14,244 nt of DNA from a virus (lineage: Duplodnaviria > Heunggongvirae > Uroviricota > Caudoviricetes), in IMG/VR virus record IMGVR_UViG_3300029080_000085; one strand, written 5' to 3'. The notes under the pieces were generated by a model. The model was given only the letters and a program-made list of their open reading frames with translations, was not told the DNA's origin and made no database searches. Positions 8,136 through 10,738 of this stretch are shown one piece after another; position 1 is the stretch's first letter, and every line of letters begins with the position of its first letter. The position numbers and the translations under genes were made by a program.

Positions 8136-8810
8136 ATGAAAACAATCCATGACATCCGGCGGTCTAACGCCAGAAAACTGAGAGATGGTGTTGGCGGGAA
8201 TTCTTCCTTTGCCACTATGATTGATCGCGAGCCAACCCAGACCAGCAGGTTTATGGGAGATGGTGCTACTAAAAATATCGGTGACAGCATGGCACGACAC
8301 ATCGAAAAATGTTTCGACCTGCCTGTCGGATGGCTCGATCAAGAACACCAGACAACGAACATCACAAAAAAACCTGATGTTTCAATCACTAATAAACAAA
8401 TCACATTAGTCCCTGTCATATCATGGGTACAGGCCGGAGCATGGAAAGAAGTTGGATATTCTGAGGTTGATTTGAGCACAGCAGAAACGTATCCCTGCCC
8501 TGTACCCTGTGGGGAAATGACTTATATCTTGCGGGTGATAGGTGATTCAATGATTGATGAGTACCGCCCGGGAGACATGATTTTTGTCGATCCTGAAGTA
8601 CCTGCCTGCCACGGTGACGACGTTATTGCATTGATGCACGATACAGGTGAAACCACCTTCAAAAGGTTGATAGAAGATGGGACACAGCGTTATCTCAAAG
8701 CGTTAAACCCAAACTGGCCTGAGCCTTACATTAAGATCAACGGTAATTGCTCTATAATTGGTACAGTGATTTTCTCAGGAAAACCAAGAAGATACAAAAT
8801 CAAAGCCTAA
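8136..8810 (+). CDS. cI: CI-like prophage repressor with C-terminal LexA-type S24 peptidase domain
   Basis: 224-aa ORF; C-terminal S24 signature (VIGDSMIDEYRPGDMIFVD ... FKRL) with Ser/Lys dyad context and candidate cleavage site QAG-AW; N-terminal DNA-binding region; no SD upstream. Confidence 0.85.
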   Translation: MKTIHDIRRSNARKLRDGVGGNSSFATMIDREPTQTSRFMGDGATKNIGDSMARHIEKCFDLPVGWLDQEHQTTNITKKPDVSITNKQITLVPVISWVQAGAWKEVGYSEVDLSTAETYPCPVPCGEMTYILRVIGDSMIDEYRPGDMIFVDPEVPACHGDDVIALMHDTGETTFKRLIEDGTQRYLKALNPNWPEPYIKINGNCSIIGTVIFSGKPRRYKIKA

Positions 8811-8822
8811 TCAATGTTTATG

Positions 8823-8846
8823 AACCTGCTTCGGCAGGTTTTTTTA
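8823..8846 (+). terminator. Intrinsic terminator after cI
   Basis: ACCTGC-TTCG-GCAGGT hairpin followed by TTTTTTT. Confidence 0.6.
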
Positions 8847-8849
8847 TAC

Positions 8850-8893
8850 TTGACAATGTACCTTTGAGATACATAATGTACCCAAGCGAAACA
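8850..8893 (+). promoter_or_regulatory. pL-like promoter with overlapping operator half-sites (OL-like)
   Basis: TTGACA (8850-8855), 16-nt spacer, CATAAT (8872-8877); operator-like TGTACCTTTGAGATACA (8857-8873) inside the spacer and a weaker TGTAC-N7-AAACA at 8877-8893. Confidence 0.5.
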
Positions 8894-8966: not shown

Positions 8967-9000
8967 AAGCGCCCTACAGGACGCTTAGCTCTTTAACAAT
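8967..9000 (+). promoter_or_regulatory. nut-like antitermination element: hairpin plus boxA-like sequence in the pL leader
   Basis: GCTCTTTAACAAT (8988-9000) matches the rrn-type boxA core (TGCTCTTTAACAAT as recalled); preceded by hairpin AAGCG-N10-CGCTT (8967-8986). Confidence 0.45.
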
Positions 9001-9044
9001 CTGGTCCCCATCAACAAGTAACTGATAACTTGAGGAGATGTGAA

Positions 9045-9251
9045 ATGCACAAAACAGAACCCAAAATCGTCGCGCCTGGCTACACAGATGAGGAAATTTA
9101 TGAGTGGATGACAAAGAAGCTGGCAGCTATAAACCAGCTTCGTGAAGTGCTGTCTTATCGACAGGAAACAATAGACTCCTTAAAAAAACTGGATCAGGAA
9201 ATCACGGTTTTATCACAGGATGTTACTTTAGATATTGTGCAGACAAATTAG
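9045..9251 (+). CDS. Hypothetical 68-aa acidic protein, first ORF of the pL-like transcript (not N-like)
   Basis: SD GAGGAG 6 nt upstream of ATG 9045; predicted helical/coiled segment (LAAINQLREVLSYRQETIDSLKKLDQEITVL); lacks an arginine-rich motif. Confidence 0.45.
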   Translation: MHKTEPKIVAPGYTDEEIYEWMTKKLAAINQLREVLSYRQETIDSLKKLDQEITVLSQDVTLDIVQTN

Positions 9252-9657
9252 GATCCCATTCATTTTCGTCAAAATCATCAAAGTGATGAATTTGTGATCT
9301 CCAGTCTCGATAATCTAAAAATTTCTGGGCGGTTACGCTTATTTTATCAAGTGTGAGTTCATCCTGAATTGAAAGAAGAAGTTCATCAAATTTCATCTCA
9401 TTAATCTGTTTTGGCATCCAGTGATGCTTCATCAGAATAAGGTGAACCAGAGCCTTTTTCCCATTCAACTGATTATAGGGAGTGCCGAATTTCTTCCGGT
9501 GCTCATGTAAGACAAGGTCCAAAAGAGTAAGTAATGTTGCCCTTGATTCAACTTTGCTTATTTCGACTGATGACACTACCCCACTGATTTCAATGCCCCG
9601 ATACTTTCCAACATTTTCACAGTGGGATTTGTACAGCGTATAGATATTACCGGACAT
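9223..9657 (-). CDS. Hypothetical 144-aa protein; AT-rich accessory gene antisense to the pL operon
   Basis: SD AAGGA 7 nt upstream of ATG 9657; visibly AT-rich; His-rich segments (LVLHEHRKK, MKHHWMP, RDWRSQIHH); 3' end overlaps the convergent 68-aa ORF by 29 bp. No family recognised. Confidence 0.6.
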   Translation of the reverse strand: MSGNIYTLYKSHCENVGKYRGIEISGVVSSVEISKVESRATLLTLLDLVLHEHRKKFGTPYNQLNGKKALVHLILMKHHWMPKQINEMKFDELLLSIQDELTLDKISVTAQKFLDYRDWRSQIHHFDDFDENEWDPNLSAQYLK

Positions 9658-9672
9658 TTCTTTTCCTTTTGC

Positions 9673-9721
9673 GTTGTTGGGGATAACCAGATTAACCGAA
9701 TCCTTGTTGTTGGGGAATAAC
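9673..9721. repeat. Two direct repeats GTTGTTGGGGA(A)TAAC upstream of the 144-aa gene
   Basis: Copies at 9673-9687 and 9706-9721, 33 bp apart start to start; on the minus strand they read GTTAT(T)CCCCAACAAC, resembling a DnaA-box-like TTATCCCCA. Confidence 0.4.
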
Positions 9722-9943
9722 TAGGTCCACCTCGCCTGATGTGGCTAAAAGCAGGCACATAACAGCTAAGTATTTTCAACCAGAGAGAATCCTTAGCGTT
9801 GTGGTGAATGCGGCTCAGCGCACGCGGGTTAAGGTTGAGGCTGACAGTCGACCTTCTGTGGATACCCACCCGCCTGGTGTGCAACCTTCGCCAGGCACCG
9901 GGAGGCACCCGGCACCACAACTTTATGCTGTGTGTAGTCTTGG

Positions 9944-9988
9944 CGGTACCAGCTTGTACCCTTGCTTCCGGCTGGTACCGTCCTTTTT
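9944..9988 (+). terminator. Strong hairpin with U-tract inside the GC-rich block (candidate tL-type terminator)
   Basis: Perfect 10-bp stem CGGTACCAGC / GCTGGTACCG (9944-9953 / 9971-9980), 17-nt loop, followed by TCCTTTTTA. Confidence 0.45.
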
Positions 9989-10201
9989 ACAAAACAGAGA
10001 AGAGCATCACCGGACGACGGGCTCATAACCCAATCCATCCGGGCGGCTGCCACCGCAGGTGTTCTTCTCTGTTTTGTGGAGAAACTAACCGCCCCTACGG
10101 GGGCATTTATGGAAATGTAATTGACTCAATAATCGCCGGACGGTGAGGGCTTCCTTTTACCGGAATTCAGCGCGGTGCAGCGCATATACGTGGAGAACAA
10201 A

Positions 10202-10738
10202 ATGTCATTTATTAAAACTTTTTCCGGGAAGCATTTTTATTATGACAGGATAAATAAAGACGACATCGTTATTAACGATATCGCGGTTTCCCTTTCAAAT
10301 ATCTGTCGCTTTGCAGGACATCTTTCACACTTCTACAGTGTCGCCCAACATGCGGTGCTTTGCAGCCAGCTGGTGCCGCAGGAATTTGCTTTTGAAGCTT
10401 TAATGCATGATGCAACAGAAGCATATTGCCAGGACATCCCCGCACCACTGAAACGACTTCTTCCTGACTATAAACGGATGGAAGAAAAAATAGACGCCGT
10501 AATCCGTGAGAAATACGGGTTACCTCCTGTTATGAGCACGCCAGTGAAATATGCCGATCTCATTATGCTGGCAACCGAACGCCGCGATCTCGGGCTTGAT
10601 GATGGCTCTTTCTGGCCTGTGCTGGAAGGTATCCCGGCAACAGAGATGTTCAACGTGATTCCACTGGCTCCAGGCCATGCCTACGGGATGTTTATGGAAC
10701 GCTTTAACGAATTATCGGAGTTACGCAAATGCGCATGA
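10202..10738 (+). CDS. HD-domain phosphohydrolase (YfdR-like)
   Basis: HD-type metal-binding motifs (RFAGHLSHFYSVAQHA ... LMHDATEAY...D); SD GGAG upstream of ATG 10202; first gene of a coupled operon ending in xis-int. Confidence 0.8.
   Translation: MSFIKTFSGKHFYYDRINKDDIVINDIAVSLSNICRFAGHLSHFYSVAQHAVLCSQLVPQEFAFEALMHDATEAYCQDIPAPLKRLLPDYKRMEEKIDAVIREKYGLPPVMSTPVKYADLIMLATERRDLGLDDGSFWPVLEGIPATEMFNVIPLAPGHAYGMFMERFNELSELRKCA

What the first reader, a model, noticed from the sequence alone, without database searches (positions are those of the whole stretch)
9722..10175. GC-rich, ORF-free, hairpin-dense ~450 bp block between the accessory gene and the ea operon
Composition shifts sharply to GC-rich and all overlapping ORFs look like Arg/Pro-rich junk without RBSs. 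The block contains several perfect inverted repeats: GCCTGG/CCAGGC, CCGGG/CCCGG, a 10-bp stem CGGTACCAGC/GCTGGTACCG followed by a U-tract (9944-9988), and GCCCC-TACG-GGGGC (10091-10104). It could be a tL-type terminator cluster crossed only by antiterminated transcripts, a structured ncRNA, or a scar from deleted early-left recombination genes.
Basis: seen in the sequence. Interest (0 to 1): 0.55.

Follow-up and report, generated by a model that had tools for sequence, protein, structure and literature searches.

The report
STnc100-like RNA in prophage leader
This GC-rich gap in an E. coli prophage is neither junk nor a gene: it holds a divergent, unannotated member of the poorly understood STnc100 family of prophage small RNAs, then a terminator and a second conserved RNA hairpin, just upstream of the phage's early-left (excision-side) genes.

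Summary
It is the non-coding leader of the early-left operon of an SfII/SfV/ST64B-type prophage at tRNA-Thr.

Positions 9798-9921 fold into a five-way-junction RNA (P1-P5) with a pseudoknot between P3 and the P4 loop. It matches Rfam STnc100 at 43.4 bits (gathering score 47, E 6e-8). A model built from it finds canonical STnc100 in return. Covariation is strong: 94.7% of cells paired against about 44% when partners are slid, and 24 of 31 pairs change on both sides. The pseudoknot has at least 12 different sequence solutions.

A conserved GU-rich linker and a strong intrinsic terminator (T1, 9942-9988) follow. Next comes an unannotated three-way-junction hairpin, B (9984-10082), which also covaries. 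The last ~85 bp of the finding (10091-10175; the matching segment runs on to 10201) is the yfdQ-yfdR spacer, because yfdP and yfdQ are absent here.

The function is not shown. The most likely reading is an STnc100/EcOnc27/PasD-type small RNA ended at T1, with T1 also attenuating the operon. A cis-acting antitermination role cannot be excluded. I rate it a new variant of a known kind, of moderate interest.

The parts
8850..8877 (+). Context: sigma-70 promoter-like site TTGACA-16-CATAAT just after the cI terminator. It is the candidate early-left (pL-type) promoter feeding the leader.
   Evidence: 11 of 12 consensus matches. The same promoter sits after the same cI gene in an Stx2c phage (L004 3060-3087). 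Its use is inferred, not shown.
8989..9000 (+). Context: rrn-type boxA GCTCTTTAACAA, directly after hairpin 8967-8986, on the leader strand.
   Evidence: Read. An exact copy is present in 39 of 249 fetched loci. In the four loci I checked against element A (L016, L022, L023, L119) it lies on A's strand, about 800-950 nt upstream.
9734..9756 (+). Upstream hairpin U2, GCCUG-AUGUGGCUAAAAG-CAGGC, followed by the conserved single strand ACAUAACAG.
   Evidence: Conserved in SfII, phiES15, L052, L083, L138 and L066. L066 has GCCUU/AAGGC, a compensatory change. Weak on energy alone (z -0.5).
9765..9797 (+). Helix P0: a 13-bp hairpin abutting P1. In relatives it is a long-range helix enclosing a 50-140-nt insert.
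   Evidence: -10.6 kcal/mol, z -4.9; I2. Relatives show GAGAGCACUC/GAGUGCUCUC, AGGGCAUUUG/UGAAUGCCCU and GAAAGAUGCUUA/UAAGUGUCUUUC.
9798..9921 (+). Element A: the STnc100-superfamily RNA core.
- P1: 9798-9806 / 9913-9921
- J: AAU, 9807-9809
- P2: 9810-9825
- P3: 9826-9829 / 9868-9871
- Pseudoknot: 9831-9837 / 9882-9888
- P4: 9872-9879 / 9889-9896
- P5: 9898-9912
   Evidence: Rfam RF02076 at 43.4 bits, E 6e-8. Own model R1 scores 144.9 bits here and 50.2 bits on canonical STnc100.
9922..9941 (+). Single-stranded GU-rich linker UUUAUGCUGUGUGUAGUCUU. It is a candidate seed or protein-binding site.
   Evidence: GCUGUGUGUAGUC or a close variant is kept in the Escherichia, Salmonella and Cronobacter lineages and in the L059/L089-type IMG/VR lineage (host not identified), although the terminator that follows differs. 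Unpaired in the MFE fold apart from a 5-bp outer helix, GUGUA 9932-9936 with UUACA 9987-9991.
9942..9988 (+). T1: intrinsic terminator. 13-bp stem 9942-9954 / 9970-9982, U-tract 9984-9988.
   Evidence: -23 kcal/mol, z -4.7. 67 of 86 distinct early-left-type units have a hairpin plus U-tract within 125 nt, with unrelated stem sequences.
9984..10082 (+). Element B: a 25-bp basal stem (20-bp core 9989-10008 / 10058-10077) carrying a three-way junction, with a conserved arm GACGGGCUCAUAACCCAAUCCA and a variable arm. Not in Rfam.
   Evidence: z -6.8. 93.9% of cells paired against about 50% when slid; 6 pairs change on both sides; the G-U pairs work only on the + strand. No Rfam match at E<1. Present in Salmonella, Klebsiella and Stx phages.
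10091..10201 (+). yfdQ-yfdR-type intergenic spacer and 5' UTR of yfdR, including the GCCCC-UACG-GGGGC hairpin at 10091-10104. This is the junction left by the absence of yfdP and yfdQ.
   Evidence: Window 10091-10210 is 93% identical to the K-12 yfdQ-yfdR spacer plus the first codons of yfdR. Relatives carry yfdP and yfdQ between B and yfdR.

Best explanation
The block is the non-coding leader of the early-left (yfdR...xis-int) operon of an SfII/SfV/ST64B-type prophage. It is made of RNA modules.

Module A (9798-9921) is a divergent early-left subfamily of the STnc100 / EcOnc27 / PasD family of prophage small RNAs. It folds as a five-way junction with a P3-P4 pseudoknot. With the flanking P0 hairpin, the conserved linker and terminator T1, it should yield a discrete RNA of about 190-225 nt.

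By analogy with its Hfq-bound relatives, this RNA most likely acts in trans as a regulatory RNA. Base pairing through the only conserved single-stranded stretch (9922-9941) is the simplest route.

T1 should also stop most transcription before the early-left genes, so it acts as an attenuator. Element B lies only on read-through transcripts. It is most simply a processing or stability hairpin of the RNase III type, like the one in the lambda N leader.

Shown here: the identity, the fold, the terminator-like structure and the genomic position. Inferred: that the transcript exists, its ends, Hfq dependence, trans action and RNase III cleavage.
For: - Homology: full-length match to RF02076 at 43.4 bits, E 6e-8 and 9.5e-7 over the whole window. 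A model built only from early-left members recovers canonical STnc100 downstream of stx2 (L008, 50.2 bits) and 125 units across Enterobacteriaceae.
- Fold: 94.7% of cells paired against 40-47% when slid; 24 of 31 pairs change on both sides; covariation score 0.44 against 0.118 in shuffles. P2 flips from C-G to G-C between the subfamilies. The pseudoknot is kept by at least 12 different sequences in early-left members and many more in canonical ones.
- RNA gene behaviour: canonical units occur as tandem arrays of 2-3, each with its own terminator. Many have a -10-like hexamer just before P1.
- Terminator: T1 has z -4.7 and a U5 tract. A terminator is present in 67 of 86 distinct early-left units, with unrelated stems.
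- Literature: EcOnc27/STnc100 and PasD are Hfq-bound, and PasD stability depends on Hfq (PMC4104026, PMC12711010, PMC8550237, bioRxiv 10.64898/2026.05.13.724894).
- Position: cI, then terminator, then promoter, then leader, then yfdR...int in the window, SfII, ST64B and phiES15. The unannotated Stx2c phage shows the same layout from its sequence and ORFs.
Against: - The score is below Rfam's gathering threshold. Other early-left members score 30.7-51.3 bits.
- I found no sigma-70-type promoter within about 100 nt upstream of A in the window. The RNA would have to be cut from, or terminated out of, a long pL transcript that crosses an antisense accessory ('moron') gene.
- 19 of 86 distinct early-left units have no terminator. 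Some run straight into an RBS and ORF (L039, L066, L109) or a long hairpin (L017, L105). That fits a cis-acting leader better than a free small RNA.
- The invariant parts are the helices and junction (P1, J, P2, P5), not a seed. A pseudoknotted five-way junction is far more elaborate than typical Hfq small RNAs.
- No complementary target lies in the window.
- There are no expression data for this locus.
Confidence: 0.55

Rival explanations
1. Cis-acting elongation-control RNA that works like HK022 put. The folded A core, alone or with Nus factors recruited at the upstream boxA, modifies the RNA polymerase that made it. That polymerase then reads through T1 and later terminators into the yfdR...xis-int genes. 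No N protein is needed.
For: - A always points the same way as the genes that follow it. It sits in operon leaders: early-left in the window, SfII, ST64B, phiES15, L059, L095 and L125; upstream of a DnaB operon in L039 and L109; upstream of a single accessory ('moron') gene in L017 and L105.
- A strong terminator stands between the promoter and xis/int. I saw no N-like ORF in the leaders.
- 19 of 86 units lack their own terminator.
- The invariant structured core and pseudoknot suggest recognition by a macromolecule.
- A consensus boxA lies on the same transcript.
Against: - No similarity to put: the STnc100 model finds nothing in the HK022 nun-cI-cro region.
- There is no second, nutR/putR-like copy in the right operon of the window.
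- Canonical relatives look like autonomous, terminator-ended, sometimes tandem RNA genes in the Q-controlled late region, where a cis antiterminator is not needed (PMC4104026).
- T1 differs between lineages with no matching change in A.
Confidence: 0.2
2. A passive structured leader. The hairpins only protect a long untranslated transcript from Rho and nucleases, and provide an attenuator (T1). The RNA has no specific function of its own.
For: The leader is about 1.3 kb long, untranslated, and crosses an antisense gene. boxA upstream points to a need for protection from Rho. T1 and B are strong simple hairpins.
Against: Passive structure does not explain near-invariant P2, P5 and junction sequences across many genera. 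It does not explain a pseudoknot kept by compensatory change, or tandem stand-alone copies elsewhere.
Confidence: 0.1
3. A ligand- or factor-sensing attenuator of the riboswitch type. The five-way junction with loop-loop contact is an aptamer that decides whether T1 forms.
For: The architecture recalls complex aptamers: a multi-helix junction, a loop-loop pseudoknot and invariant junction-proximal bases. A terminator follows about 20 nt after P1.
Against: By inspection, I found no alternative pairing between the 3' strand of P1 or the linker and the 5' arm of T1. T1 is replaced by unrelated terminators, or is absent, in other lineages while A stays the same. Canonical copies are stand-alone units.
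Confidence: 0.05
4. A protein-coding gene (the 112-aa ORF 9808-10146, annotated as SfII_35), or a decayed remnant of one.
For: An ATG ORF spans the block. It is annotated as a hypothetical protein in SfII and as a frameshifted pseudogene by PGAP.
Against: - No Pfam or NCBIfam match.
- The product is Arg/Cys/Gly-rich.
- The frame is broken by 1-nt and 20-nt indels in ST64B.
- No CDS is called in ST64B or phiES15.
- Substitutions follow base pairing, not codons.
- Only 10091-10201 is a true deletion junction.
Confidence: 0.03

Closest known systems
STnc100 (Rfam RF02076), also called EcOnc27 / sRNA103: a prophage small RNA of Salmonella and E. coli, best known downstream of stx2B
   Same: - Same architecture: P1 closing helix (U)GGUG/CACCA, AAU joiner, P2 hairpin, P3, P4, near-identical P5 CACCGGGAGGCACCCGGCACCA, then a linker and an intrinsic terminator.
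- The P3-P4 loop pseudoknot is also seen in canonical members.
- Prophage-borne and widespread in Enterobacteriaceae.
   Different: - Scores below the family's gathering threshold: 43.4 against 47.
- P2 is GCGGC...GC.CGC instead of CCCCC...GGGG, so the pairs are flipped.
- It lies in the early-left leader next to cI, not in the late accessory-gene ('moron') insertion site after Q/stx (PMC4104026).
- It has no evident promoter of its own and instead carries an upstream P0 helix.
- It is followed by element B.
PasD1 / PasD2: Hfq-dependent prophage small RNAs of EPEC E2348/69
   Same: Zhu, Shabalina and Storz report that PasD shares ancestry and structure with STnc100 (bioRxiv 10.64898/2026.05.13.724894). 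It is prophage-encoded and its stability depends on Hfq (PMC8550237).
   Different: PasD lies near Q and lpxR in the late region. I did not have a PasD sequence, so I made no direct comparison.
HK022 putL / putR antiterminator RNAs
   Same: A structured RNA in the leader of an early operon, in a lambdoid phage with no obvious N protein, upstream of terminators (PMC9378689). This is a resemblance of position and possible mode of action only.
   Different: put RNAs are about 70 nt with two stems. No sequence or model similarity was found. put occurs in both early operons, whereas the window has a single A copy.
Lambda nutL / N-leader region (boxA, boxB, RNase III hairpin)
   Same: Same order along the transcript: repressor-controlled leftward promoter, then boxA, then structured RNA, then a long perfect hairpin before the first gene. 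The layout of the lambda leader is from my own knowledge.
   Different: boxA lies about 800 nt upstream of A, not next to a boxB. No N-like gene is present. RNase III cleavage of B was not tested.
DicF (Rfam RF00039)
   Same: Weak resemblance between T1 with its 5' flank and the DicF terminator hairpin (19.4 bits, E 0.17).
   Different: Far below the threshold of 48 bits. It is most likely similarity between terminator hairpins only.

Membership tests
Rfam RF02076 STnc100 | Covariance-model score at or above the curated gathering score of 47 bits | tested here: not met
   43.4 bits at 9768-9991(+). The gathering-mode scan of the window reports only the tRNA. Other early-left members score 30.7-51.3 bits, and only L066 passes.
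Rfam RF02076 STnc100 | Statistically significant, full-length alignment to the model | tested here: met
   Model positions 1-206 of 206 are matched. E is 6e-8 for the 901-nt search and 9.5e-7 for the whole window.
Rfam RF02076 STnc100 | Reciprocal detection: a model built from this element finds canonical STnc100 | tested here: met
   R1, built from 11 early-left sequences, hits L008 19509-19639 at 50.2 bits, E 1e-11. That site lies inside the 149.5-bit Rfam STnc100 hit at 19482-19693.
Rfam RF02076 STnc100 | Shared secondary structure (P1-P5 multi-helix junction) supported by covariation | tested here: met
   94.7% of cells paired against 40-47% when slid, and 24 of 31 pairs change on both sides, over 116 distinct sequences. 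Caveat: this alignment was fitted to the model. Independent single-sequence folds give the same topology.
Rfam RF02076 STnc100 | Stand-alone gene: its own promoter just upstream of P1 | tested here: not met
   No promoter-like site lies at 9660-9800 on the + strand. Canonical units show -10-like hexamers 3-8 nt before P1; the window does not. This is a consensus scan only.
Rfam RF02076 STnc100 | Intrinsic terminator a short linker after the core | tested here: met
   T1 at 9942-9988: -23 kcal/mol, z -4.7, U5 tract.
Rfam RF02076 STnc100 | Location in the late-region accessory-gene ('moron') insertion site, downstream of Q/pR' or stx | tested here: not met
   It lies between cI and yfdR...xis-int. 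The canonical copy in an Stx2c phage lies after stx2, next to the tRNAs (PMC4104026).
Rfam RF02076 STnc100 | Hfq binding and trans-acting base pairing | not testable with these tools
   Known only for relatives: EcOnc27 by CLIP and PasD by RIL-seq and northern blot.
HK022 put-type antiterminator RNA | Homology to put (about 70 nt, two stems) | tested here: not met
   There is no STnc100-type hit in HK022 27.4-30.2 kb, the region holding nun, cI and cro. A is 124 nt with five helices. I did not compare it directly with a put sequence.
HK022 put-type antiterminator RNA | A copy in each early operon (putL and putR) | tested here: not met
   The 14.2-kb window, which includes the cro-cII-O side, holds only one copy.
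HK022 put-type antiterminator RNA | Terminator read-through in cis that depends on the beta' zinc-binding domain | not testable with these tools
   Needs reporter fusions or in vitro transcription.
Lambda-type nut site | boxA immediately 5' of the RNA structure that binds the antiterminator | tested here: not met
   The UGCUCU-rich motif next to P1 in relatives is the 3' strand of helix P0. It is degenerate in the window (GAAUCCUUAGC). The true boxA is at 8989-9000, about 800 nt upstream.
Lambda-type nut site | A cognate N-like arginine-rich protein encoded nearby | tested here: inconclusive
   The small ORF 9030-9251 is acidic and looks like a coiled coil. The first ORFs after A differ between lineages, and none is Arg-rich at its start. 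I ran no profile search for N.
   Only T1 qualifies. The hairpin at 10091-10104 is followed by AUUUAUGG. The scan lists it as terminator-like on the - strand only. The other repeats are P4, P5 and the stem of B.
Type III toxin-antitoxin RNA array (considered because relatives form tandem arrays followed by a terminator and a gene) | A conserved toxin gene directly downstream of the RNA repeats | tested here: not met
   Downstream ORFs fall into many unrelated clusters. By my reading of their N-terminal sequences these include a porin-like protein, a holin-like protein and a YfdP-like protein, among others.

The most novel reading that the evidence does not exclude
The STnc100 superfamily, this early-left variant included, may be more than a base-pairing small RNA. 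It may be a tertiary-folded RNA whose near-invariant P2/P5/junction surface binds a macromolecule: RNA polymerase, a Nus factor, the ribosome, CsrA or a phage protein. Its fold is a five-way junction locked by a P3-P4 pseudoknot. In the early-left leader it would then act in cis as a new, put-independent class of RNA antiterminator or elongation switch. That switch would govern expression of xis, int and the accessory genes after induction. Element B would be a further new RNA motif on the read-through transcript.
Probability: 0.2. Interest if true: 0.8.

Novelty: new variant of a known kind. Interest (0 to 1): 0.45.

Why it matters
Annotation:
- DNA matching this block occurs in 3003 of 5426 complete E. 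coli genomes. In 414 of them the match covers at least 80% of the block. It is also present in the Shigella serotype-converting phages SfII, SfIV and SfV, and in Salmonella ST64B.
- It is currently annotated as a hypothetical protein, as a frameshifted pseudogene, or not at all. Rfam-based pipelines miss it because it scores just under threshold.

Biology:
- It places an STnc100-type RNA, followed by a strong terminator, between the repressor-side promoter and the excision and early-left genes. That is the position where lambda uses N/nutL and HK022 uses putL.
- This makes it a testable candidate for how these N-less phages control leftward expression.

For the family as a whole:
- The pseudoknotted five-way junction seen here is a structural feature missing from the Rfam consensus line I saw. 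It would also be missed by the RNAalifold consensus published for PasD and STnc100, because that method cannot predict pseudoknots.
- The family includes the RNA downstream of stx2 that was recently linked to features predicting clinical outcome (PMC12711010).
- This degree of structure argues that the family does more than simple seed pairing.

Tried and rejected
- **put homology.** Rfam in E-value mode on the HK022 nun-cI-cro region found no STnc100-like hit.
- **boxA next to P1.** Relatives carry R-UGCUCU-YYYC directly 5' of P1. I first read this as a nut-type boxA. It pairs with an upstream GAGAGCA-type strand to form helix P0, with covariation, so I dropped that reading.
- **Riboswitch-type switching.** By inspection, I found no alternative pairing between P1 or the linker and T1. 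T1 is swapped or absent in other lineages.
- **RNAalifold on a plain MAFFT alignment.** It recovered only the invariant helices and showed no covariation, because the variable P3 and P4 were misaligned. I replaced it with constrained folds, helix tables and a model-based alignment.
- **A second, nutR-like copy in the window.** None at E<1 with Rfam or E<0.01 with R1.
- **A target for the linker within the window.** Nothing above chance.
- **Type III toxin-antitoxin analogy.** No conserved downstream gene.
- **K-12 CPS-53 as a tractable homologue.** It lacks A, T1 and B, and shares only the yfdQ-yfdR spacer.
- **'Tandem copy' upstream in L117, L054 and L123.** Only the first 15 nt (GUUGUGGUGAAUGCG) are shared. 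It is not a full unit.
- **Variant A' in Stx2c phages (L004 3372-3495).** It holds the same position and starts with the same GUUGUGGU-AAU, but neither Rfam nor R1 detects it. Homology is unresolved.
- **Literature.** Searches for ST64B small RNAs and for processive-antitermination RNA elements in prophages gave nothing usable. One preprint that mentions PasD could not be opened.
Full report
**Where the block sits**

The window is a lambdoid prophage of the SfII/SfIV/SfV/ST64B type, integrated at tRNA-Thr next to proA. The local order on the + strand is as follows.
- A LexA-like cI gene at 8136-8810, then its terminator at 8822-8841.
- A strong promoter-like site TTGACA-16-CATAAT at 8850-8877.
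- A hairpin at 8967-8986, followed by a consensus boxA at 8989-9000.
- An ECs1072-family accessory ('moron') gene on the minus strand at 9223-9657.
- The block under study.
- yfdR at 10202-10738, then further early-left genes, xis, int and attachment at tRNA-Thr.

The same layout (cI, terminator, promoter, variable spacer or accessory gene, block, early-left genes) is seen in SfII, ST64B, Cronobacter phiES15 and an Stx2c phage. The block is therefore the leader of the early-left operon. That is the position of pL-nutL-N in lambda (lambda layout from my own knowledge).

**Check of the observation**

GC rises to 0.54-0.56 across 9751-10200, from 0.35-0.44 on either side.

Folding energies exceed dinucleotide shuffles:
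- z -2.8 for 9768-9991
- z -4.7 for the terminator hairpin
- z -6.8 for 9975-10115

Mechanical ORFs do overlap the block. One is annotated as SfII_35 and as a PGAP 'frameshifted' pseudogene. They match no protein family. Their frame is not kept in ST64B, which differs by 1-nt and 20-nt indels. ST64B and phiES15 carry no CDS there.

**Element A (9798-9921)**

An Rfam scan in E-value mode gives a full-length match to STnc100 (RF02076) at 9768-9991(+). The score is 43.4 bits against a gathering score of 47, with E 6e-8. No other family matches the block.

An IMG/VR scan with two conserved strings returned 120 loci holding 32 distinct cores. A GTDB scan with the P5 string returned at least 120 loci. 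These came from Escherichia, Shigella, Enterobacter, Klebsiella, Raoultella, Citrobacter, Kosakonia, Buttiauxella, Trabulsiella, Superficieibacter, Pantoea, Erwinia and others.

Constrained single-sequence folds of the distinct cores converge on one topology:
- P1: GUUGUGGUG/CACCACAAC
- An AAU joiner
- P2: GCGGCUCAGCGCACGC
- P3: GGGU/ACCC, with a variable insert
- P4: a variable hairpin
- P5: CCGGG-AGGCA-CCCGG

P1, P3 and P4 are kept by different sequences in different lineages. For P4 these include GCCUGGUG/CGCCAGGC, GAUCGCA/UGCGAUC, GGCGUUAAUUG/UGGUUAACGUC and GCUCUGGUU/GACCAGAGC.

A 7-nt stretch at the 5' side of the P3 insert is complementary to the P4 loop. This pairing is preserved by many sequence solutions:
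- AAGGUUG:CAACCUU (window, ST64B)
- AAGGCUG:CAGCCUU (phiES15)
- CAGUUA:UAACUG
- CAGUUAA:UUAACUG
- UGGUUAA:UUAACCA
- UGGUUAG:CUAACCA
- AGACUGACA:UGUCAGUCU

Per-sequence shuffle p values are mostly 0.0005-0.07. One variant has a G-U pair that works only on the + strand (L068).

Pair counts support the fold. On an 11-sequence alignment that includes the pseudoknot, 98.1% of cells pair, against 35-43% when the partners are slid. A covariance model built from those 11 sequences finds 125 units. Among them is the canonical STnc100 downstream of stx2 in an Stx2c phage, at 50.2 bits.

On that 116-distinct-sequence alignment:
- 94.7% of cells pair, against 40-47% when slid.
- 24 of 31 pairs change on both sides.
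- The covariation score is 0.44, against 0.118 in shuffles.

The caveat is that this alignment is fitted to the model. P2 flips from C-G pairs in canonical members to G-C pairs in the early-left members, which defines the variant. The pseudoknot is also detectable in most canonical members, with many sequence solutions.

**What surrounds A**

Immediately 5' of A lies hairpin P0 (9765-9797, z -4.9). In relatives P0 becomes a long-range helix enclosing 50-140 nt.

Further upstream lies a conserved hairpin, U2 (9734-9756). It carries a compensatory change in L066.

On the 3' side, the linker UUUAUGCUGUGUGUAGUCUU is conserved across genera, even where the terminator after it differs.

T1 (9942-9988) has a 13-bp stem at -23 kcal/mol and a U5 tract. 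A hairpin plus U-tract follows 67 of 86 distinct early-left units. The other 19 lack one. Some run straight into an RBS and ORF, or into a long perfect hairpin.

**Element B (9984-10082)**

B has a 25-bp basal stem whose 5' arm includes the U-tract of T1. The stem carries a three-way junction. Across E. coli, Salmonella, Klebsiella and other variants, 93.9% of cells pair against about 50% when slid. Six pairs change on both sides, and several U-G or G-U pairs are valid only on the + strand.

B has no Rfam match. The T1+B segment is the most widespread part of the block: query positions 241-403 are about 94% identical in many Stx2 phages. There the segment follows a different structured RNA, A', which starts with the same GUUGUGGU-AAU.

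**The 3' end of the block**

Window 10091-10210 is 93% identical to the K-12 CPS-53 yfdQ-yfdR spacer. Relatives carry yfdP and yfdQ between B and yfdR. The GCCCC/GGGGC hairpin and the sequence after it are therefore a junction where those two genes are missing. They are not part of the conserved RNA.

**How it most likely works**

Canonical family members behave like autonomous RNA genes. They form tandem arrays of two or three units about 255 nt apart, each with its own terminator. Many have a -10-like hexamer 3-8 nt before P1, and some also have a -35 at 17 nt. Published work shows that EcOnc27/STnc100 and PasD are Hfq-bound and have many RNA partners. The simplest reading is that A plus T1 yields a discrete regulatory RNA, and that T1 also attenuates the operon.

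Several points argue against a purely trans role:
- The window copy has no evident promoter.
- Some early-left units lack terminators.
- A always points the same way as the downstream genes, in leaders of several operon types.
- The invariant parts are structural, not a seed.

These points keep a cis-acting, put-like role alive. However, A is not related to put, and there is no second copy in the right operon.

A consensus boxA lies on the same strand, about 800-950 nt upstream of A in the loci I checked. Exact copies are present in 39 of the fetched loci. That suggests the long untranslated leader is shielded from Rho by Nus factors, independently of A. This is an inference.

**Verdict**

The block is real, structured and non-coding. 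It is a divergent, mostly sub-threshold subfamily of a known but poorly understood prophage RNA family, placed in an unusual position (the early-left leader). It is coupled to a terminator and to an undescribed RNA hairpin motif. The fold, with a family-wide pseudoknot, is more elaborate than reported for this family in the sources I could read. The function remains inferred.

Noticed in passing
window 8967-9000 (+): A hairpin, AAGCGCCCUACAGGACGCUU, is followed at once by a perfect rrn-type boxA, GCTCTTTAACAA, downstream of the promoter-like site at 8850-8877. On the minus strand the same hairpin looks like the terminator of the accessory-gene cassette. The exact boxA occurs in 39 of 249 fetched loci. 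In the four loci I checked against element A (L016, L022, L023, L119) it lies on A's strand, about 800-950 nt upstream.
   Followed up: partly
window 8850-8881 (+); L111; L004 3060-3087: The pL-like promoter carries ATGTACC twice. In relative L111 it has a perfect TGTACC-N5-GGTACA palindrome between the -35 and -10 elements, a likely operator for the LexA-like cI. The T1 stem also contains two GGTACC palindromes, at 9945-9950 and 9974-9979. That may be coincidence.
   Followed up: no
window 9673-9687 and 9706-9721: Direct repeats GTTGTTGGGGATAAC and GTTGTTGGGGAATAAC lie 33 nt apart (start to start), between the start codon of the minus-strand ECs1072-family gene (9657) and the conserved leader RNA. 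They could be an operator or iteron of the accessory-gene promoter, or part of a weak hairpin at 9702-9725.
   Followed up: no
window 9223-9657 (-) and 9030-9251 (+): An ECs1072-family phage-associated gene (NCBIfam NF033230, 157.8 bits) lies antisense inside the early-left leader. SfII and L117 carry different minus-strand genes at the same spot, so this is a hot spot for accessory-gene insertion. The overlapping 73-aa + ORF is acidic, looks like a coiled coil, and is of doubtful reality.
   Followed up: partly
window 9801-10120; L001 4083-4421: Public annotation places a 'frameshifted hypothetical protein' (PGAP) and the CDS SfII_35 across the RNA. Both are probably spurious.
   Followed up: yes
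L157 6369-7002, L168 2833-3209, L194 1919-2300, L153 3444-3784, L156: In Superficieibacter and Enterobacter genomes, canonical STnc100 units form tandem arrays of 2-3 copies about 220-270 nt apart. Each has its own GC hairpin and U-tract terminator.
   Followed up: partly
L039 6680-6808 and 6309-6438 (-); L109: One phage lineage carries two paralogous units in a non-coding leader of about 900 nt, upstream of a small membrane ORF and a DnaB-like helicase operon. The second paralogue has P2 GCGCAGGCUGAUGCGC and a different P5, and scores 25.5 bits with R1.
   Followed up: partly
L004 3372-3495 (Stx2c phage): A different structured RNA, A', occupies the position of A in front of the same T1+B module. 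It starts GUUGUGGU-AAU and closes with ACCACAAC, but lacks the P5 motif. Neither Rfam nor R1 detects it.
   Followed up: partly
L017 and L105: In these IMG/VR contigs an early-left-type unit, followed by a long perfect hairpin, precedes a single 286-aa ORF. That ORF lies between what look like terminase and portal genes on the opposite strand. I infer those identities from the N-terminal sequences only and ran no family search.
   Followed up: no
L003 909-1097 (-), L004 914-1102 (-), L008 9494-9682 (+): ST64B and the Stx2c phage carry C4-antisense (about 80 bits) and IsrK (60-64 bits) RNAs in the rightward operon. The window, although it has a related immunity region, has neither.
   Followed up: no
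L093 (promoter ends about 10 nt before P1); L117 6161; L054; L123: A strong promoter, TTGACA-17-TACATT, is fused so that transcription would start at GUUGUGGUGAAUGCG. In L093 this 15-mer continues into the full A core. In L117, L054 and L123 it continues into unrelated sequence and an ORF. The shared 15-mer therefore looks like a recombination joint.
   Followed up: partly
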